This document shows positions 3,867 through 11,361 of a DNA stretch of 64,000 bases, one piece after another. The position numbers and the translations under genes are program-made. The stretch is from Chitinophagaceae bacterium. GTDB lineage: Bacteria; Bacteroidota; Bacteroidia; Chitinophagales; Chitinophagaceae. The notes below the pieces were generated by a model. The model worked only from the letters and a program-made list of their open reading frames with translations. It ran no database searches and was not told where the DNA came from. The stretch spans positions 3,568-67,567 of the forward strand of contig JAGQWM010000004.1 of NCBI GenBank assembly GCA_020437365.1, in the 5' to 3' direction. Within the stretch, counting starts at the first letter, position 1, and each line of letters starts with the position of its first letter.

Positions 3867-3891
3867 TCCATTTGGGCTCAGAGCAATTGCT

Positions 3892-3899
3892 TACATTTG
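3892..3899 (+). promoter_or_regulatory. Bacteroidota sigma70 -7 element for mutL
   Basis: TACATTTG matches TAnnTTTG; 23 nt lie between it and the GTG start. Confidence 0.7.
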
Positions 3900-3922
3900 T
3901 CAGTTCAGTAAAGAAACAGAGA

Positions 3923-5758
3923 GTGCCAGATAAAGTAACCTTATTACCCGACAATATCGCCAACCAGATTGCAGCCGGAGAAGTCATACAGCGGCCTGCC
4001 AGTGCTGTCAAAGAGTTACTCGAAAATGCAGTAGATGCCGGAGCCACATATATACAATTAATTGTTGCCGATGCCGGTAAATCTTTAATTCGGGTGATTG
4101 ATAACGGCAGCGGCATGTCGGAAACTGATGCCAGGATGTGTTTCGAACGACACGCCACATCCAAGATAAAAGATATTGAAGACTTATTTCATATCCGCAC
4201 TATGGGCTTTCGTGGCGAAGCCTTGGCTTCCATTGCTGCCGTGGCGCAGGTAGAAATAAAAACCAAAAGAGAAGAAGACGAAACAGGTGTTTGTATTGAA
4301 ATAGAAAATAGTGTTGTAAAAAAACAAGAACCTGTAGCTACACCAACCGGCACCAACCTGGCCATGAAAAATTTATTTTTTAATGTGCCGGCCCGAAGAA
4401 ATTTTTTGAAAAGTAATGCAGCCGAAATGCGACATATCGTTGAGGAATTTACACGGGTAGCCATGGCATTTCCTGAAATACTTTTTACGCTGACACATAA
4501 TGATCAGCAGCTTTTTCATTTAGAACCGGGCAATTTAAAACAACGGATTATTCAATTGTTGGGCAATGCATACAAAACAAAATTAGTAGCGGTAAAAGAA
4601 GACACCGACTACATGAATATTTACGGTTTTGCAGGCAAGCCTGATGCGGCTAAAAAAACCCGGGGCGACCAGTATTTTTTTGTCAACAATCGTTATATCC
4701 GCAGTGCTTATCTGAACCATGCGGTGATGAATGCTTTTCAGGATACCATTCCCAAAGATGTTTTTCCGGCTTATGTTTTATTCATCGACCTCGACCCGAC
4801 TGTCGTTGATGTCAATGTGCATCCCACCAAACAGGAAATAAAATTTGAAGACGAAAAAATTATTTATGCATTTGTACAGGCTGCTGTAAAACATGCTTTG
4901 GCACAATTCAGCGTTACGCCCACTTTAGATTTCGACCTTGATGCTACGATTCAACAATTACCATCCGTATCGCAGCCTTTTACCGAAGAAAAAAAATCGG
5001 CAGCAGCTGCCAGTTCTATTTTTAAAGGATTTAGCCAAAAGCATCAGGCACATTTTATTGAGAAAACTGAAAATACTGACCCGAAAGCTATCGGATTGAA
5101 GCACTGGAAAAGTTTTTATGATGATTCGTATGCCGATAACCTGGCGTCAAATCCCGAAAAACCAATTCAACATTTACCTTTCGCTCATCGCTCTGCTGCT
5201 GATTGTAAACAATTGTTGAATACGTATATAACTGTTCCTTCAGCCGATGGGTTTCTACTCATTCACCAACAGGCGGCACATGAAAGAGTTTTGTATGAAA
5301 AATATTTAATGGCCAATAAAATCCATCCTATTGCTTCGCAAAAAACGATGTTTCCCACGACAGTGGAATTGCCTCCGGCCGATGCAGCCATCATGCAGGA
5401 AATAACCGACGACCTTCATTTATTGGGATTCATCATTGAGCCATTTGGCAGAAATGCATTTGTGGTTCAAGGCTCACCAGCCGATGTAGCACAAGGCAGT
5501 GAAAAACAAACGATAGAAGATTTATTGGAACAATATAAAAATTTCAGTAGCGAAGTAAAATTTTCATCTCGTGAAAAAATTATCCGTAGCCTGGCCAAAC
5601 AACAAGCCATTAAACCGGGGACTTCGCTTTCTGTTACTGAAATGCATCAATTGATTGCTGATTTATTCGATTGTGAAATGCCTAACAGCACTGCCGATGG
5701 CCAACCCACTTATTTATCTTTTAGCAAAGAACAACTGGAAAGGATGTTTGGTAAATAA
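3923..5758 (+). CDS. mutL: DNA mismatch repair endonuclease MutL
   Basis: IAAGEVIQRPASAVKELLENAVDAGA, DNGSGM, RHATSKI, GFRGEALASI, DVNVHPTKQE, HQQAAHERVLYE. Likely GTG start at 3923 (ORF track starts 3872). Confidence 0.97.
   Translation: MPDKVTLLPDNIANQIAAGEVIQRPASAVKELLENAVDAGATYIQLIVADAGKSLIRVIDNGSGMSETDARMCFERHATSKIKDIEDLFHIRTMGFRGEALASIAAVAQVEIKTKREEDETGVCIEIENSVVKKQEPVATPTGTNLAMKNLFFNVPARRNFLKSNAAEMRHIVEEFTRVAMAFPEILFTLTHNDQQLFHLEPGNLKQRIIQLLGNAYKTKLVAVKEDTDYMNIYGFAGKPDAAKKTRGDQYFFVNNRYIRSAYLNHAVMNAFQDTIPKDVFPAYVLFIDLDPTVVDVNVHPTKQEIKFEDEKIIYAFVQAAVKHALAQFSVTPTLDFDLDATIQQLPSVSQPFTEEKKSAAAASSIFKGFSQKHQAHFIEKTENTDPKAIGLKHWKSFYDDSYADNLASNPEKPIQHLPFAHRSAADCKQLLNTYITVPSADGFLLIHQQAAHERVLYEKYLMANKIHPIASQKTMFPTTVELPPADAAIMQEITDDLHLLGFIIEPFGRNAFVVQGSPADVAQGSEKQTIEDLLEQYKNFSSEVKFSSREKIIRSLAKQQAIKPGTSLSVTEMHQLIADLFDCEMPNSTADGQPTYLSFSKEQLERMFGK
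5080..5094. repeat. 15-nt near-perfect palindrome apparently inserted in-frame in the mutL linker
   Basis: CCCGAAAGCTATCGG; its core CCGAAAGCTATCGG is one mismatch from the perfect palindrome CCGATAGCTATCGG. Removing it converts T-D-P-K-A-I-G-L-K-H-W to T-E-L-K-H-W. Confidence 0.7.
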
Positions 5759-5774
5759 ATGCAATTTATTGCAA

Positions 5775-5806
5775 GTCATTCCGGCATTGCGCCGGAATCT
5801 TTTTTT
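5775..5806. terminator. REP-like palindrome/terminator between convergent mutL and lipoprotein genes
   Basis: GTC-ATTCCGGC-ATTGC-GCCGGAAT-C followed by T7. Confidence 0.7.
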
Positions 5807-7535
5807 ATCTTGTACGTCGTATTCTAAATGCCCCGTTAATAGACTCAACAATGTTGGGATTATATGTTTCTTCTATATACTTACCTGAATATGTGCCTTC
5901 AAAAAATTCTCCTATTTGATTTGGAAAACGTGAAAGAGTTACATTAAAAGGAGGAACAATTGTATAATGAGCAAACTCCCTTTCAAGACGCATATACGTT
6001 ACAGGATAAATACCTGTTGGGTTTAACTGAAAAACCAAAGTTAGGCCATCAGCTAGACTGGCTATACCAGAAACTCCAGCAAAATCTGCGTTGAAAATAT
6101 CTCCTTCAAACCTAATAAACGGCCATTGATCATTTAAAACTGTATTGTTATATGAAATAAACTGAAAGGTTGTATCGCCACAAGCTGCAATATTTCCGGT
6201 GTTTGTAATGGGTGAAACAATTGTAAATGATTGAGGCAAACTTTGTCTTGAATCTTCTTCATCAACAGCAATTACAGTACAAATAGTTGGAACAGGAGTT
6301 ACACATTCCGATAGCCCTAAACTAAATTCACCATTCGAATTAACTTGAGCTGTCTGACTTTTATTGCCATAATTGATTATTGCATATCCATTTGTAACTT
6401 TTTGTCCCGAACATTTTATTAATTTGCCTTGCACTGTAGCAATGACAGGGTTATTTGCAGCTATTGTACCCAAATTAATGTCGCCACTGAAAGGACCAAA
6501 ATTCTCTGAATAAATCACGTTTCCACATACATTCAAAGCTTCAATTAATAATGGTTTATTCATAGGATAGTATAAATTTACTTGACCCAAAGAGTCTGTA
6601 AATCCCCAAACTGTTGTTTGCTCTCCCACAACGCTTATCCTAACATAATTATAACTAAGCGGTCCTCCAAATTGATCAATAAATGTCGCAGATAAAACTC
6701 CAGCTACTAATGGAGTATCACAATTCCAAGTTGTAAAATGTGACACTGCTCCTACATATTTATCTCCATTTTTTATAGCTGTTCCTTCTTCTTGCCAGAT
6801 TCCGGTTACTTCATCCACATACCACATACTTATTGTTGCAGGAGCCGATGATTGCACTGCAGATGGAATGGCTGTTGTTAGTGTTGCTGATTTGCTTTTT
6901 GCAATTTGCAATTTTTCACCTGATGGTGATTCCAGCTCTACCGCTAACATGCCATAAGACGCAAGTACAACCTTGTTTCCGTTTTTATCTTTGGCTAAAA
7001 AAGAACCCGGTATTGTTTTTGAAATATCAGGTCTTGTCGGATCTATGTATGCTGCATATACATTCACATCTCCATTATACACACCACCACCCGATTCTAA
7101 CGCCACTCCATTTGCAGGAAATTCAATCTTAGTTCCATTCGAAAGTGAAATTATTCCACCTGAACTATTTGTAATAGTTCCTGCAAGTTGTTTATTGACA
7201 AGTATGATTTCAATATTATTAACGCTGGTTGTCGCATTAAACACCCGATAAGTTTTAAAATATCCTTGCCTCTCGGCTGAAACAACTGTTTCTTTTTCAT
7301 TGAGCGTTGCGTCATTAATTCTAAAAAAACCTTTTACATCAGTCAAAGCAGATTTTATTCCAATAGTTATTTTAACATCAACAATTGGATTACCAGCTCC
7401 ATCCGTTACTTTACCTTTTACCACGCCATTAAATGTATTGGAACCATATACTCCAACTCCGGGTACATCGTACTTATGGCAATTCAATGCCAGTAATGCA
7501 ATTAAAATTATTAAAAAAGAATAACGTTTGCACAT
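5805..7535 (-). CDS. AT-rich putative lipoprotein with a carboxypeptidase-regulatory-like N-terminal domain and a CILP/astroprincin-like central domain
   Basis: Probable start MCKRYSFLIILIALLALN|C (lipobox); VKGKVTDGAGNPIVDVKI domain; LASYGMLAVELESPSGEKLQI...W..DE.TGIWQEEG...VSHFTTWNCD motif. Sampled 60-nt lines give 27-35% GC versus about 43% in mutL. Confidence 0.75.
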   Translation of the reverse strand: MCKRYSFLIILIALLALNCHKYDVPGVGVYGSNTFNGVVKGKVTDGAGNPIVDVKITIGIKSALTDVKGFFRINDATLNEKETVVSAERQGYFKTYRVFNATTSVNNIEIILVNKQLAGTITNSSGGIISLSNGTKIEFPANGVALESGGGVYNGDVNVYAAYIDPTRPDISKTIPGSFLAKDKNGNKVVLASYGMLAVELESPSGEKLQIAKSKSATLTTAIPSAVQSSAPATISMWYVDEVTGIWQEEGTAIKNGDKYVGAVSHFTTWNCDTPLVAGVLSATFIDQFGGPLSYNYVRISVVGEQTTVWGFTDSLGQVNLYYPMNKPLLIEALNVCGNVIYSENFGPFSGDINLGTIAANNPVIATVQGKLIKCSGQKVTNGYAIINYGNKSQTAQVNSNGEFSLGLSECVTPVPTICTVIAVDEEDSRQSLPQSFTIVSPITNTGNIAACGDTTFQFISYNNTVLNDQWPFIRFEGDIFNADFAGVSGIASLADGLTLVFQLNPTGIYPVTYMRLEREFAHYTIVPPFNVTLSRFPNQIGEFFEGTYSGKYIEETYNPNIVESINGAFRIRRTR

Positions 7536-7703
7536 ATTAGTCTCGGTTGTGGTTTTTGCCTTTAAAGTTAACTTTAAAAACAATTATCGGCAATTCATAA
7601 GACAGTTTATATTTTATAATTGCTGCTTTTGTATATCTTTTTGAAAACCAATACGATTATTTGATTTTTATTTTTTTACTCCTAGAAAATATCAGGTATA
7701 TCA

Positions 7704-9041
7704 TTAGTAATCATTCCTGATTGTACGCAAAAATTTTTCTACAGCTTTTCTTACATCTGTTGTAGAAGCATTGTGATTATTGACCAGCGTTGAAAATATC
7801 AGGTGTTTCCCTTTCTTCGTTGTTAAAAAACCACTGAAAGCAACGACACCATTCAGCGTTCCGGTTTTGGCATAGATAAATCCTTTTTCTTCTTTATAAT
7901 AATTACGAATAGTGCCTTCGCCGCCGGTTTCAAAAATCGTTTGAATGCGTGGCATACCAAATTCATCTTTCATTTTTTGTAAAATGGCAACAATATCCTG
8001 TGGTGTAAATAAATTATAACGGCTCAATCCGGAACCATCGGCCCAACTCGGCCTTTGTGGTAAATCTTTAAAATCTGTTTGTAAAATATGTTGAATGATT
8101 TTCCGGTCGTTCATTACACCGAGTAATTTCTGGCTCACCATCATCAATGATTGTTCGGCATAAAAATTATCGCTGCGATGCATCAATGGTTTCAACATAG
8201 CATCCGTTGGCTGCGAATAAATCATTACCGGGTTTGATATTGCAGGCAAATTGCCCTGCACGGGAACAAAATCTAAGGCCTTGTGCAACGTATCCGGCAA
8301 TAAAGATAACGTAGTAGAAAAACCATCGGTTACAAAAGGCATTTCCGATTTTTCAAATGGCTCATTCCCTTTTGTGATGGTAAATGTATTGTCATCTAAC
8401 CTTCGGTTGATGATTGCATTTTTTGCCTCGGCACCGGGAGCAAATTTTACATCTCTTTCAAAGAAAGAAGGAATGGTCTTTATCGATTCGCCTTGACGAT
8501 ACAAGGACATCATATTTCCATAGATAGGAAAAGGGCTTCTTTCTGCCATATAATATTCAGTATAATCGCCCCATGACCAACCCGCACCCCAATGCGTATC
8601 CTGCCAATTATCAGTTGCATATTTTACAATGGCGCCATCGGGTAGGTTTTTAAAAAAATCAAATACAGGTTGATAGCTGAACTCCTGTGTCATAAAAGTC
8701 GGGTCGCCGGTAGCTTGAATAAAATATTGATTATCCTTCACACTGTATTGCAAACCGGGTAAACTATCACCCAAATATTTCATGGCGACATAACAGGTAG
8801 AGATCTTTGTATTACTTGCCGGAATAAAATATTTATCGCTCTGAAAATTGTATAAATATTTTTGTGTAGCCGGATCGTAAATACAAATACCGACATGTGC
8901 ATTTTTTAAAGCCGGCGTTTCCAATACATCTTTTTGGGCCAGCCCGGAAATTTGTTTGCTGACGGAACAAGAAGATGTAAAAAAAATAATTAAAATAAAA
9001 ATCCAAATTGCGTTATCCTTTTGTAATACGTTTTTTTTCAT
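7704..9041 (-). CDS. dacB: D-alanyl-D-alanine carboxypeptidase/endopeptidase (PBP4, peptidase S13)
   Basis: PASNTK (SxxK), HRSDNFYAE (SxN), DGSGLSRYN, AKTGTL (KTG). Confidence 0.93.
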   Translation of the reverse strand: MKKNVLQKDNAIWIFILIIFFTSSCSVSKQISGLAQKDVLETPALKNAHVGICIYDPATQKYLYNFQSDKYFIPASNTKISTCYVAMKYLGDSLPGLQYSVKDNQYFIQATGDPTFMTQEFSYQPVFDFFKNLPDGAIVKYATDNWQDTHWGAGWSWGDYTEYYMAERSPFPIYGNMMSLYRQGESIKTIPSFFERDVKFAPGAEAKNAIINRRLDDNTFTITKGNEPFEKSEMPFVTDGFSTTLSLLPDTLHKALDFVPVQGNLPAISNPVMIYSQPTDAMLKPLMHRSDNFYAEQSLMMVSQKLLGVMNDRKIIQHILQTDFKDLPQRPSWADGSGLSRYNLFTPQDIVAILQKMKDEFGMPRIQTIFETGGEGTIRNYYKEEKGFIYAKTGTLNGVVAFSGFLTTKKGKHLIFSTLVNNHNASTTDVRKAVEKFLRTIRNDY

Positions 9042-9062
9042 TGCATATTTTTTTGAAATGTA

Positions 9063-10196
9063 TCAACCTCTCTCCTGTGCCCGCAACCATCTTTCCGGAA
9101 TTTCATTACTGCTCGCCAGCAAATAATCTTTGTAACTACAGGCTATAAATTTTTTATCAGGTAACTGCATCCACCAGCGGCCTGTTTTTTTACTTTGAAT
9201 AAAAGTAGTTTCCACTTCTACAAACATCGTATTATATTCTGTAAACGAATCTCTTTCATCGAGTGCTGCTTCTTTTTTGCCCCGGCTTCTGCCATCCAGT
9301 AAATACCAAATCATTTGACTGATTTGTTTGGCCGTCAGGTCGTCTTTGTCGTGCTGTGCATCGTAGCCGTAAATTCCCACTGTATTGATATTAGGGCTCA
9401 TACCGGCATAACGGAATAACACACAAGCTTCTTCACCGTACAATCCGTTCGGCGAAAAAGTATTGGCTGGCGCAAATGCACTGGCCATGGCAGTCATATC
9501 GAAACTAAACAGGTGGCTGTTGCGAATAACCGGTTCCATTTCATCTATCGATTCTTTGACGCTGCCCACCCGGAAACAATCGAAACGTAATTTATCAAGT
9601 GTTTCTAACATGCGGGGATGTACGTAATAACTTTGAAATGCAAGGTGATTATAATGGCGGATAAAATTGGGTTCGCCGGTGAGCATTTCCATTAAAAAAT
9701 TTTCGTGGCGGAAGGAAGACTCCAAGTTCAAATCTATCAGTGCATCAACACAAGTGGCTTCTATGAGTTTTTTGGCATCGGCATACGCATTGTATTGTGA
9801 CAGTGTCAGGTCATGTGAGCCGCCGAGTATTATGACTGTTTTACCATCCTGTATAAGGTCTTGTACAACGGTTTTCAAGGCAGCATAAGAATCGGTAAAC
9901 AAAGAGCCGGTTTTGATATTGCCGACGTCGGCCATTCTTATATCAGTATGCCAAAAATATAATTCGTAAAAATGTCGGCGGATAATATTAGGAGCTTCAC
10001 TCTGTCCGTGTATCAAACCACTGCCTCTTTGTTCGCCACAGCCCACTATCACAATTTGTACTTCGTCGAGGTCGGGAAAATCTTCATCAAACACAGCTAT
10101 TGTATTTCCTATCTGGCCTTCTTTATATCCTTCATCAAAAGAAAGGCCGGCGAGGCTAACCGGTTCCAGGAAATCGGAAATATTGAGGTGGTCCAT
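9063..10196 (-). CDS. Arginase/formimidoylglutamase-family protein with degenerate metal ligands
   Basis: ADVGNI, ILGGSHDLT, DALID, SFDMTA, SPNGLYGEEAC. Likely start MDHLNIS at 10196. Confidence 0.85.
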   Translation of the reverse strand: MDHLNISDFLEPVSLAGLSFDEGYKEGQIGNTIAVFDEDFPDLDEVQIVIVGCGEQRGSGLIHGQSEAPNIIRRHFYELYFWHTDIRMADVGNIKTGSLFTDSYAALKTVVQDLIQDGKTVIILGGSHDLTLSQYNAYADAKKLIEATCVDALIDLNLESSFRHENFLMEMLTGEPNFIRHYNHLAFQSYYVHPRMLETLDKLRFDCFRVGSVKESIDEMEPVIRNSHLFSFDMTAMASAFAPANTFSPNGLYGEEACVLFRYAGMSPNINTVGIYGYDAQHDKDDLTAKQISQMIWYLLDGRSRGKKEAALDERDSFTEYNTMFVEVETTFIQSKKTGRWWMQLPDKKFIACSYKDYLLASSNEIPERWLRAQERG

Positions 10197-10284
10197 AATC
10201 ACAAAGCTAAGGAGTAAAAGAGATAAACGATGATGTGCTGAAAGATTATTTAGCAGGGAGGCAAACTGCATTCTTTTCAAATCT

Positions 10285-10292
10285 TATCTTTG
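10285..10292 (+). promoter_or_regulatory. -7 promoter element for pheS
   Basis: TATCTTTG, 7 nt upstream of the ATG. Confidence 0.7.
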
Positions 10293-10299
10293 CGAACAC

Positions 10300-11361
10300 A
10301 TGAAAACATTACAGGAAAAAATCGAAGCATACAAAAAGGAAATTTCGGCATTTACCGCCGCTGATGAAAATGAAATTGAATCATTTCGTATCAAATATCT
10401 CGGCTCCAAAGGTTTGGTAAAATCCATTATGAGCGAAATGAAAAATGTATCACCGGACAATAAAAAAGAAGCCGGTTTGCTGCTCAATGAATTCAAAACC
10501 TTTGTAGAAGAAAAATTTGCGTCATTAAAATCGGCAACTGCTACGGTTGATACTACCGGTGATGGCAAATCTTCTTCGATAGATTTTAGTTTACCCGGCG
10601 ACCCCATGCCGGTAGGGGCCCGCCACCCTGTCGTATTGATGCGCAATAGGATTGTTTCTATTTTCCAACGGTTAGGATTCGCAGTAGCAGAAGGACCGGA
10701 GATTGAAGACGATTGGCACAATTTCGGCGCCTTGAATTTACCCGAACACCATCCGGCCCGCGACATGCAGGATACTTTTTATATTCAACAAAATCCTGAT
10801 TGGGTTTTGCGTACACACACAAGCAATGTGCAAATCCGGGAAATGGAAAAAGCCAGCCTACCGGACAGACAGGGAAAACTGCCTATTCGCATGATTATGC
10901 CGGGCAGGGTGTATAGAAATGAAACTGTGAGTGCAAGAAGCCATTGTTTTTTTCACCAGATAGAAGGGTTGTATGTAGATGAAAATGTTTCTTTCGCCGA
11001 CCTCAAACAAACTTTGTATTTTTTTGTAAAAGAAATGTATGGCCAAGATGTAAAAGTTCGCTTCAGGCCTTCATATTTTCCTTTTACCGAACCCAGTGCC
11101 GAAATGGATGTCAGTTGTTTTATCTGTGGCGGTAGTGGTTGTAATATTTGCAAAAAAACAGGATGGGTAGAAATCCTGGGCTGTGGTATGGTGCATCCGA
11201 ATGTTCTTAGCAATTGCAAGATAGACCCCAATAAATACACAGGATTTGCGTTTGGCATGGGCATTGAACGACCTGCCATGTTGAAATACGGCATCAATGA
11301 TATTCGGTTGTTCAGTGAAAATGATATTCGATTTTTACAACAGTTTACCGCTGCGATATAA
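10300..11361 (+). CDS. pheS: Phenylalanine--tRNA ligase alpha subunit
   Basis: HPARDMQDTFY, LRTHTSNVQIR, PGRVYRNE, FHQIEGL, RFRPSYFPFTEPSAEMD, WVEILGCGMVHPNV, GFAFGMGIER. Confidence 0.98.
   Translation: MKTLQEKIEAYKKEISAFTAADENEIESFRIKYLGSKGLVKSIMSEMKNVSPDNKKEAGLLLNEFKTFVEEKFASLKSATATVDTTGDGKSSSIDFSLPGDPMPVGARHPVVLMRNRIVSIFQRLGFAVAEGPEIEDDWHNFGALNLPEHHPARDMQDTFYIQQNPDWVLRTHTSNVQIREMEKASLPDRQGKLPIRMIMPGRVYRNETVSARSHCFFHQIEGLYVDENVSFADLKQTLYFFVKEMYGQDVKVRFRPSYFPFTEPSAEMDVSCFICGGSGCNICKKTGWVEILGCGMVHPNVLSNCKIDPNKYTGFAFGMGIERPAMLKYGINDIRLFSENDIRFLQQFTAAI
10853..10873. repeat. 21-nt degenerate palindrome apparently inserted in-frame in pheS
   Basis: CCAGCCTACCGGACAGACAGG. Removing it converts EMEK-ASLPDRQ-GKLPIR to EMEKGKLPIR; 5 of 8 stem pairs remain. 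Confidence 0.75.

What the first reader, a model, noticed from the sequence alone, without database searches (positions are those of the whole stretch)
5080..10873. Hypothesis: an in-trans system writing 3n-length micro-palindromes into housekeeping genes
Seen: two sequence-unrelated hairpin elements within 6 kb, both multiples of 3 nt and both removable to restore a compact protein, with no obvious target-site duplication. A third, REP-like hairpin lies between genes at 5775. No mobilising enzyme is encoded in this window. Established: REP elements elsewhere are mobilised by RAYT/HUH (IS200/IS605-type Y1) transposases. Inference: this genome hosts several micro-element families spread by enzymes encoded elsewhere, and they supply peptide indels. 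This is my best candidate for an under-described system here.
Basis: inference. Interest (0 to 1): 0.7.

Follow-up and report, generated by a model that had tools for sequence, protein, structure and literature searches.

The report
Tiny palindromic repeats inserted inside genes
Two essential genes of this uncultured Chitinophagaceae bacterium (pheS and mutL) each carry an in-frame copy of a 15- to 21-base palindromic repeat that occurs in tens to over a hundred copies in related genomes, so these are relics of very small, probably mobile DNA elements that add short peptide loops to proteins.

Summary
The 21 nt at 10853-10873 (ASLPDRQ in PheS) is absent from all 30 relatives examined. It differs at two bases from CCTGCCTACCGGACAGGCAGG ("F1"), found in 39 of 61 congeners (up to 63 copies; reversed control 0). 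The 15 nt at 5080-5094 (PKAIG in the MutL linker) is shared with two congeners; in one the core is the perfect palindrome CCGATAGCTATCGG ("F2"), found in 45 of 61 congeners (up to 176 copies; control at most 2).

The same genome has F1 in frame in GlyRS, LysRS and AlaRS, with empty sites in most relatives. Congeners carry F1 in MetRS, CysRS, QueA, RsgA, another MutL and RAYT genes.

The hairpin at 5778-5798 is an ordinary mutL terminator.

The enzyme is not shown. Y1/HUH transposases lie outside the window. One F1-like hairpin sits about 40 nt upstream of an IS200-type gene. Genomes rich in F1 all have Y1 genes, but genome size confounds this.

"3n" is partly a survival filter: 19- and 20-nt variants are extragenic, and 21 nt is F1's usual length outside genes too.

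Intragenic REPs, Rickettsia RPEs and cyanobacterial SDRs are precedents. I rate this a new variant of a known kind, with moderately high interest.

The parts
10853..10873 (+). F1 element: a 21-nt in-frame insert in pheS, CCAGCCTACCGGACAGACAGG, encoding (A)SLPDRQ(G). It is a decayed copy, differing at 2 bases from CCTGCCTACCGGACAGGCAGG.
   Evidence: Absent from 30 relatives. Family membership is shown. An F1 insert at the same site is seen in the metagenome protein P0001.
10300..11361 (+). pheS, the phenylalanyl-tRNA synthetase alpha subunit; host gene of the F1 copy.
   Evidence: Pfam PF01409 and PF02912; PDB matches.
5080..5094 (+). F2 element: a 15-nt net in-frame insert in the mutL linker, CCCGAAAGCTATCGG, encoding PKAIG. 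The 14-nt core at 5081-5094 is one substitution away from the perfect palindrome CCGATAGCTATCGG.
   Evidence: Filled in G000, G018 (perfect) and G016 (decayed); empty (GAG|TTG) in the other congeners aligned.
3872..5758 (+). mutL; host gene of the F2 copy. The insert lies in the linker between the transducer domain and the C-terminal dimerisation domain.
   Evidence: Pfam PF13589, PF01119 and PF08676.
5778..5808 (+). Intrinsic terminator of mutL: ATTCCGGC-ATTGC-GCCGGAAT followed by CTTTTTTTAT, between convergent genes. It is not part of either repeat family.
   Evidence: Fold z = -3.8; terminator scan; 3 copies in the own genome and 0 in 4 congeners.

Best explanation
The two window features are relic copies of two unrelated families of REP-like micro-palindromic repeats that spread, or once spread, within Chitinophagaceae genomes.

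F1 is a 21-nt hairpin, CCTGCCT(G/A)CC-GGA-CAGGCAGG, with an 8-bp stem and a 5-nt loop. It has no stop codon in any of the six frames.

F2 is an 18-nt perfect palindrome, NN-CCGATAGCTATCGG-N'N'. In 5 of 5 filled/empty comparisons it stands where the empty site has the trinucleotide A-N-T, which gives a net gain of 15 nt.

Shown: copies land in intergenic DNA, where they cluster as REPs do, and also in coding DNA. In genes, the copies observed keep the frame, contain no stop, and sit in places such as the MutL linker, the PheS loop before motif 2, and the N-terminal linker of PheS. There they read as xLPAGQAG, CLPDRQ, PACRTGR or PIAIG.

Inferred: the elements are mobilised in trans as single-stranded hairpins by HUH/Y1 tyrosine transposases (RAYT-type or IS200-type) encoded elsewhere. 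Precise excision by such an enzyme, recurrent insertion, or both would explain the patchy filled/empty pattern among species. In this genome the families look nearly extinct. It has 3 copies of the 21-nt form within 2 mismatches (the pheS copy is a fourth, more decayed one) and 1 F2 copy. What remains is slowly decaying peptide loops in pheS, mutL, glyS, lysS and alaS.

The confidence of 0.72 is for the whole statement. That both inserts are copies of dispersed repeat families I put at about 0.95; that the mobilising enzyme is a Y1/HUH transposase at about 0.5.
For: Inserts and empty sites:
- PheS.
- MutL.
- AlaRS SFGD^PARPAGG^YFK is filled in G000, G023 and G011 and empty in the other genus members aligned.
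- LysRS is filled only in G000.
- GlyRS is filled in G000, G012 and G019.
- A G048 gene has GGAAAC|CCGATAGCTATCGGG|TGGAAT, against empty sites in the 17 congeners whose site could be aligned.
- A methyltransferase is filled in 3 species and empty in 2.

Family status:
- F1 is in 39 of 61 congeners with a control of 0, and in 13 of 161 genomes across the phylum.
- F2 is in 45 of 61 congeners, and in 44 of 401 genomes across the phylum, almost all in one class.
- All 15 sites in this genome within 3 edits of the C152 copy are family members.

Hairpin-preserving covariation:
- The AlaRS variant CCCGCC..GGCGGG recurs in other genomes.
- The outer two pairs of F2 are complementary in 18 of 21 copies although their sequence varies.

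Proteins carrying F1 in congeners: MetRS, CysRS, QueA, RsgA, ComEC, the MutL of G076 and others.

Enzyme candidates:
- IS200-type genes pass NF033573, and a RAYT-type gene of G016 passes NF047646.
- An F1-like hairpin, GCCAGCCTACCGGCAGGCAGGC, lies about 40 nt upstream of the C152 Y1 gene.
- A CCTGCCGGGC..GCCCGGCAGG hairpin lies upstream of a RAYT gene in G069.
- One F1 subfamily carries a GTAG tag.
- All 28 genomes with at least 5 F1 copies have Y1 genes, and none of the 20 genomes without Y1 do.
Against: - No transposition event, intermediate or polymorphism was observed.
For F2 it disappears among genomes of 2.6 Mb or more.
- F2 copies are found inside RAYT genes and inside the hairpins that flank them, rather than as their cognate ends.
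- Known Y1 transposases neither delete nor duplicate target bases, so the apparent 18-for-3 replacement by F2 is not what they are known to do.
- REP mobilisation by RAYTs has never been shown directly (my own knowledge of the field).
- A single origin of the shared PheS insert in G000 and P0001 cannot be excluded (AU p = 0.38). Recurrent insertion or excision is therefore not proven.
Confidence: 0.72

Rival explanations
1. The elements are real dispersed repeats, but they are copied without a dedicated transposase. Possible routes are replication template switching or hairpin-primed synthesis, short-patch gene conversion from other copies, or integration of excised hairpin oligonucleotides by microhomology.
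For: - F2 always ends as an 18-nt perfect palindrome that takes in or replaces an A-N-T trinucleotide. This looks more like microhomology or a repair process than like Y1 chemistry.
- The G018 mutL copy is perfect while the orthologous G016 copy is badly decayed, which fits re-homogenisation by conversion.
- No enzyme gene is consistently next to F2.
Against: - Template switching makes palindromes out of local sequence. It would not produce the same 14-nt core at hundreds of unrelated sites.
- Copy numbers differ more than 100-fold between congeners, as expected if activity is switched on by a factor present in some genomes only.
- F1 at 5 or more copies is found only where Y1 genes exist.
Confidence: 0.17
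2. The motifs are kept because they do something for the host. They could be DNA sites, such as uptake or recognition sequences, HIP1-like sites tied to methylation or repair, or terminators or RNA hairpins. Alternatively they could be a useful peptide module in translation proteins.
For: - In this genome, four of the five gene-internal F1 copies are in aminoacyl-tRNA synthetases. MetRS, CysRS, QueA and RsgA carry copies in congeners.
- The stem is preserved by compensatory changes.
- The exact 21-mer is conserved across classes.
Against: - The copies arise as clean indels, not by point mutation.
- Most relatives manage with empty sites.
- The window copies are decaying and no longer fold better than shuffled sequence.
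- The peptide differs with reading frame and orientation (LPAGQAG, CLPDRQ, PACRTGR, LPVRQAG), so no single peptide is being selected.
- 14 small-genome congeners have essentially none.
Confidence: 0.06
3. These are chance hairpins in ordinary lineage-specific indels of variable loops, with no repeat family involved. I consider this rival rejected.
For: The window copies fold no better than shuffles. Neither has a second exact copy in this genome. The MutL linker is full of indels in all relatives.
Against: The pheS insert matches the 21-nt family consensus at 19 of 21 positions with no gap, and the reversed-pattern control gives 0 hits in 61 genomes. The mutL insert is a perfect 14-nt palindrome in G018, and that palindrome has up to 176 copies in congeners against a control of at most 2.
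Confidence: 0.02

Closest known systems
Intragenic REPs ('REP-decorated proteins'), GTAG- and CGTC-tagged REP superfamilies (Di Nocera et al. 2013, BMC Genomics 14:522, PMC3733652)
   Same: Both are short palindromic repeats of about 20-40 bp. Both are mostly intergenic and clustered, with some copies lying wholly inside ORFs of known proteins and adding amino acids. Both are proposed to be mobilised by RAYTs. One F1 subfamily here carries a 5' GTAG. The paper also notes a bias towards certain gene classes (replication and repair genes there).
   Different: The host is Chitinophagaceae. The paper lists Bacteroidetes only for CGTC repeats. The inserts here are single 21-nt and 15-nt units, whereas more than half of theirs are dimers or groups encoding 20-30 aa. 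The gene bias here is towards aminoacyl-tRNA synthetases. F2 has no loop and no GTAG or CGTC tag. Orthologous filled and empty sites are documented across many species.
Rickettsia palindromic elements (RPEs; Ogata et al. 2000, as cited in PMC3733652)
   Same: Selfish palindromic DNA inserted in frame into genes that very probably still make functional proteins, including housekeeping genes. The inserts are tolerated as surface peptide segments.
   Different: From my own knowledge, RPE-1 is about 100-150 bp and encodes 30-50 aa, and its hosts are obligate intracellular alphaproteobacteria. The elements here are 5-7 codons long and sit in free-living Bacteroidota.
Small dispersed repeats (SDR4-6) of Nostoc and Anabaena (Elhai et al. 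2008, Genome Res 18:1484; reference 43 in PMC3116915; paper not held, details from memory)
   Same: Very small (21-27 nt) hairpin-forming repeats that are argued to be mobile. They are found inside conserved genes and nested within one another. The mobilising enzyme is unknown.
   Different: The phylum and the sequences differ. F2's net insert of 15 nt is smaller than any SDR. A nested insertion was seen here once (G016:C110).
REPINs and RAYTs (Bertels & Rainey 2011, PMC3116915); IS200/IS605 'peel-and-paste' Y1 transposition
   Same: A hairpin-based, non-autonomous element with a single-copy HUH/Y1 gene nearby; no target duplication; excision is expected to be precise.
   Different: The proposed replicative unit of a REPIN is a REP doublet, whereas the gene-internal copies here are single hairpins. 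No doublet structure was found around the window copies. A cognate RAYT has not been identified, and the RAYT-like gene in this genome (C93) scores 69.6 bits, below the NF047646 cut-off of 80.

Membership tests
REP (repetitive extragenic palindrome) family | Short (about 20-40 nt) imperfect palindrome present in many dispersed copies per genome | tested here: met
   F1 has up to 63 copies and F2 up to 176 copies per congener, with reversed-pattern controls of 0-2. In the window's own genome the related 20-nt form has about 40 sites, but the 21-nt F1 has only 3 within 2 mismatches and F2 has 1.
REP (repetitive extragenic palindrome) family | Predominantly intergenic, often clustered or arrayed | tested here: met
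   In G076, 62 of 79 F1 sites lie outside ORFs of 150 aa or more, and most of the rest are in spurious ORFs; arrays are present. In the own genome the copies cluster at contig ends. For F2, 18 of 21 sampled copies are intergenic.
REP (repetitive extragenic palindrome) family | Stem maintained by compensatory changes | tested here: met
   The T:A to C:G variant CCCGCC..GGCGGG recurs. F2's outer pairs are TC/GA, AC/GT, AT/AT, AG/CT or CC/GG, and are complementary in 18 of 21 copies.
GTAG-type REP / REPIN mobilised by a RAYT | Conserved GTAG (or CGTC) tetranucleotide at one end of the hairpin | tested here: inconclusive
   GTAG lies immediately 5' of one F1 subfamily in G076 and of the C69 and C11 copies in G000. 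It is absent from the other subfamilies, from all gene-internal copies and from F2.
GTAG-type REP / REPIN mobilised by a RAYT | A RAYT gene flanked by copies of the same REP (a 'REPtron') | tested here: inconclusive
   One F1-like hairpin lies about 40 nt upstream of an IS200-type gene, which is cut by a contig end (C152). A related hairpin lies upstream of a RAYT gene in G069. The RAYT genes of G016 are flanked by other hairpins, with F2 inserted into them. The own-genome RAYT-like gene on C93 is flanked by an unrelated hairpin.
GTAG-type REP / REPIN mobilised by a RAYT | The replicative unit is an inverted REP doublet | tested here: not met
   All gene-internal copies are single 21-nt or 15-nt units with clean empty sites.
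Mobile element (any) | Orthologous filled and empty sites, with the same sequence at unrelated loci | tested here: met
   Seven genes have filled and empty orthologues.
Mobile element (any) | Observed movement, meaning polymorphism within a population or experimental transposition | not testable with these tools
No same-species genome or protein exists in the collections; the best PheS match is 82-84% identical over the full BLASTP alignment, and at most 86% once the insert columns are removed.
Intrinsic terminator (hairpin at 5778-5798) | GC-rich stem-loop followed by a T-run just downstream of a stop codon | tested here: met
   An 8-bp stem with 5 GC pairs, a 5-nt loop and CTTTTTTTAT, 20 nt after the mutL stop.

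The most novel reading that the evidence does not exclude
F2 would be the smallest integrating DNA element so far described: an 18-nt loop-less perfect palindrome that replaces an A-N-T trinucleotide, for a net gain of 15 nt. Together with the 21-nt F1, it would represent a class of micro-elements whose multiple-of-three length and stop-poor frames let them colonise the coding 85-90% of compact bacterial genomes. They would insert into and precisely excise from essential genes, including the AlaRS SFGD|YFK motif, through a hairpin-specific HUH enzyme acting in trans.
Probability: 0.25. Interest if true: 0.8.

Novelty: new variant of a known kind. Interest (0 to 1): 0.6.

Why it matters
The finding gives a concrete source for a class of short lineage-specific indels in highly conserved proteins: six aminoacyl-tRNA synthetases, MutL twice, QueA, RsgA and even RAYT transposase genes. 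It shows that 5-7-residue loops can be added by selfish DNA rather than by slippage.

It also offers a testable system for a long-open question, namely whether and how REP-type hairpins actually move. Congeners range from 0 to more than 170 copies, many orthologous sites are filled in some species and empty in others, and candidate HUH enzymes are present.

For annotation and phylogenetics, the peptides (xLPAGQAG, CLPDRQ, PIAIG, PDSYR) mark insert columns that should be masked.

The apparent A-N-T replacement by F2, if it holds up, is an integration pattern not described for Y1 transposases.

Tried and rejected
- Folding the window copies as DNA gave no signal. The structure has decayed, so hairpin energy is the wrong test.
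- Exact and short-word searches of the own genome found no second copy. The BLAST E-values for the 12-mer matches were uninformative. Family membership appeared only after de novo 16-mer counting and fuzzy matching.
- A first fuzzy-regex scan timed out.
- I first suspected that 21 nt was a coding-selected variant of a 20-nt REP. The G076 survey rejected this, because 21 nt dominates outside genes too.
- The riboflavin synthase hit (C77) was dismissed as native sequence. The PIVIG and PIAIG peptide hits in G000 use unrelated codons and were dismissed.
- A literature search for the motif strings found nothing relevant. Elhai et al. 2008 is not held.
- A tree and AU test could not decide whether G000 and P0001 share one insertion event.
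- The lipoprotein signal-peptide F2 site was too divergent to define an empty site.
- One genome search failed because of a mistyped parameter.
Full report
**What is in the window.**
- The window is G000:C106:3568-67567, from a 2.63-Mb, 38% GC MAG in 161 contigs. The closest named relatives are uncultured Chitinophagaceae.
- mutL runs 3872..5758 (+) and pheS runs 10300..11361 (+).

**Hairpins as such.**
- The two coding 'hairpins' fold no better than shuffled sequence: z = -0.27 and -0.95.
- Neither has a second exact copy in this genome.
- The intergenic hairpin is strong (z = -3.8). It has an 8-bp stem and a 5-nt loop, followed by CTTTTTTTAT, 20 nt after the mutL stop.
- This hairpin type has 3 copies in this genome and none in four congeners. 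It is a terminator, not a repeat family.

**The pheS insert is real.**
- All 24 same-genus and 6 same-order PheS sequences read ...REMEK-GKLPIR...
- The window's protein reads ...REMEK-ASLPDRQ-GKLPIR....
- The solved P. aeruginosa enzyme (4p71) aligns with a 7-residue gap at the same place.
- The DNA can be written GAAAAAG|CCAGCCTACCGGACAGACAGG|GAAAAC. There is no target duplication.

**It belongs to a repeat family (F1).**
- De novo 16-mer counting in the genome found a palindromic repeat, ACCTGTCTGCCGACAGGCAGGT / CCTGCCTGCCGGCAGGCAGG. It has about 44 sites, many of them in arrays at contig ends.
- All 15 genome sites within 3 edits of one copy (C152: GCCAGCCTACCGGCAGGCAGG) are family members, and the pheS insert is one of them.
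- Across 61 congeners, the 21-nt form CCTGCCTGCCGRACAGGCAGG (up to 2 mismatches) occurs in 39 genomes, with up to 63 copies. The reversed pattern occurs in none.
- The dominant variant CCTGCCTACCGGACAGGCAGG matches the pheS insert at 19 of 21 positions without a gap.
- In a phylum-wide sample, F1 with up to 1 mismatch occurs in 13 of 161 genomes, including other classes.

**Other F1 inserts in the same genome.** Four further family hits lie in long ORFs:
- GlyRS, EEQDLS[LPAGEAG]T.
- LysRS, FTEE[SLPAEQA]GK.
- AlaRS, NWSFGD[PARPAGG]YFKKEA, which is inside a highly conserved motif.
- A TPR-like protein.

Each aaRS insert is exactly 21 nt. The relatives show:
- AlaRS is filled in G000, G023 (1 nt different) and G011 (diverged), and empty in the other genus members aligned. 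A 7-aa insert also sits at the same point in another family, in G040.
- LysRS is filled only in G000.
- GlyRS is filled in G000, G012 and G019.
- A peptide-level scan of G000 found no further cases.

**F1 in congeners.**
- Of 30 loci (one per genome), about 20 lie in frame inside ORFs of 150 aa or more.
- The proteins include MetRS, CysRS, QueA, RsgA (two species), a GATase, FIST proteins, an E1 dehydrogenase, ComEC, an aminotransferase, adenine deaminase and the MutL linker of G076.
- The peptides depend on frame and orientation: xLPAGQAG, CLPDRQ, PACRTGR, LPVRQAG or PARPAGG.
- The F1 consensus has no stop codon in any of the six frames (read directly from the sequence).

**A genome-wide survey of copy-rich G076 corrects the picture.**
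- Of 79 sites, 8 are 19 nt long, 24 are 20 nt and 47 are 21 nt.
- 62 of the 79 lie outside long ORFs, and most 'ORF' hits look spurious.
- So 21 nt is the family's normal length. The family is mainly intergenic and arrayed, with several composite contexts, one of them GTAG-tagged.

**PheS elsewhere.**
- In 5.8 billion proteins there is no same-species PheS. The best matches are 82-84% identical over the full BLASTP alignment. With the insert columns removed, the highest identity is 86%.
- P0001 (82% identical) has ACLPDRQ at the same site, with DNA GAAAAAG|CTTGCCTGCCGGACAGGCAGG|GGAAG. Its 92%-identical neighbour P0024 is empty.
- An AU test cannot reject a G000+P0001 clade (p = 0.38). One ancestral event or two independent events both remain possible.
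- Five other homologues carry F1 or F2 peptides in the N-terminal linker: DLPTGQAG twice, TCLPDRQA, LPAGRAG and PIATG.

**The mutL insert and family F2.**
- In the disordered linker, G000 reads TD-PKAIG-LKHW, G018 reads SD-PIAIG-LKHW and G016 reads DE-PKGVG-LKHW. The other genus members read SE-LKHW.
- The G018 core is the perfect 14-nt palindrome CCGATAGCTATCGG. G000 has one substitution, and G016 has about five.
- This palindrome (up to 1 mismatch) occurs in 45 of 61 congeners: 176 copies in G048, 169 in G016 and 58 in G013. The control gives at most 2.
- The exact form occurs in 44 of 401 genomes across the phylum, almost all in the same class.
- Sampled copies are 18-nt perfect palindromes. 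The outer two pairs vary but are complementary in 18 of 21 copies. Most copies are intergenic, and the coding copies read PIAIG or PDSYR.

**The A-N-T pattern at F2 sites.** In all five filled/empty comparisons, the 18-mer occupies the place of an A-N-T trinucleotide, for a net gain of 15 nt. Two of the five rest on paralogues, so I treat this as a lead.

| Site | Trinucleotide at the empty site |
|---|---|
| mutL | AGT |
| G048:C11 gene | ACT |
| Methyltransferase | AGT |
| Loop of a hairpin upstream of a RAYT gene | ACT |
| Inside a RAYT gene | AAT |

**Candidate enzymes.**
- G000 has IS200-type Y1 genes on C109, C127 and C152/C111. The two complete genes (C109, C127) pass NF033573; the 81-aa C152 fragment scores 49.5 bits, below the cut-off of 55.
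- It also has a RAYT-like gene on C93, which scores 69.6 bits against a cut-off of 80, and a RAYT pseudogene on C147. None of these is in the window.
- The C152 gene is preceded, about 40 nt upstream, by the F1-like hairpin closest to the pheS copy.
- Congeners carry RAYT-type genes that pass NF047646. One in G069 is preceded by CCTGCCGGGC-tgaa-GCCCGGCAGG.
- RAYT genes are themselves hit at one spot (FAVVEW|VDVF): by F2 in G016 (with a nested 18-nt insert in a paralogue) and by F1 in G012.
- All 28 genomes with at least 5 F1 copies have Y1 genes, and none of the 20 Y1-less genomes do (Fisher p = 1e-7; p = 0.0025 among genomes of 2.6 Mb or more). Genome size and relatedness confound this, and F2 shows no such link among the larger genomes.

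**Literature.**
- Intragenic REPs that add residues to known proteins, and the in-frame RPEs of Rickettsia, are described in PMC3733652.
- REPIN/RAYT mobility is proposed in PMC3116915, which cites Elhai et al. 2008 on 21-27-nt mobile repeats in cyanobacteria. That paper is not held.
- No held paper contains the F1 motif.
- The scan's earlier notes on this window (e1-5275329, e1-5275328) recalled the same peptides from memory. The family status they guessed is now tested.

**Verdict.**
- It is unproven as to the enzyme.
- It is overstated as to a purposeful '3n' or 'housekeeping' rule.
- It is wrong about the third hairpin.
- The phenomenon is a new variant of a known kind. The F2 integration pattern and the aaRS bias are the parts most worth following up.

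Noticed in passing
G000:C78:21971-21991, C102:6876-6896, C117:34647-34667 (outside the window): In this genome, four of the five gene-internal F1 copies sit in aminoacyl-tRNA synthetases (PheS, GlyRS, LysRS, AlaRS). MetRS and CysRS carry copies in congeners. aaRS genes make up only about 1-2% of coding DNA, so this bias is unexplained.
   Followed up: partly
G000:C117:34647-34667 and L066, L073, L093: The AlaRS insert splits the conserved GNWSFGD|YFK motif. A 7-aa insert at the same point is also present in another family (G040: NIGQERGG). This suggests either a recurrent target or a loop that tolerates insertion surprisingly well.
   Followed up: partly
L273 (G016:C110), L277 (G016:C626), L275 (G012:C8): RAYT-type transposase genes carry F2 and F1 inserts at the FAVVEW|VDVF site. 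One paralogue has a nested extra 18 nt (CCTTCGATGCCTCAGGAC) in the centre of its F2 copy, which may be a third micro-element.
   Followed up: partly
L020 (G013 PheS): PheS of G013 has a separate 4-aa insert, P-AGGI-DWVL, upstream of the HTS motif. Its origin was not examined.
   Followed up: no
G000:C109:16200-17248 and C127:10030-10500: The IS200-type genes are flanked by other small hairpin repeats (CCCCTTCGGGG, GCCCGAAGGGC, CAACCGCAAAGCGGTTG). On C109 there is also a partial duplication of the gene's 5' end. These look like further REP-like families in this genome.
   Followed up: no
G000 genome (contigs not mapped; not in the window): A 46-nt repeat, GTTGCGAATCATCCTTAAAGATAAAATTTTGAAAGCTATTCACAAC, occurs about 22 times. 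It looks like a CRISPR array repeat of the long Bacteroidota type.
   Followed up: no
G000:C70:1903-1923 and 2055-2075: Two hairpins of the same type as the mutL terminator (ATTCCGGC..GCCGGAAT) lie 152 nt apart with identical flanks. This is a local duplication or a tandem unit.
   Followed up: no
L237 (G076 mutL): The MutL linker of G076 carries an F1 copy (GLPAGQAG), while G000, G016 and G018 carry F2 in the same linker. So both families hit the same disordered region independently.
   Followed up: partly
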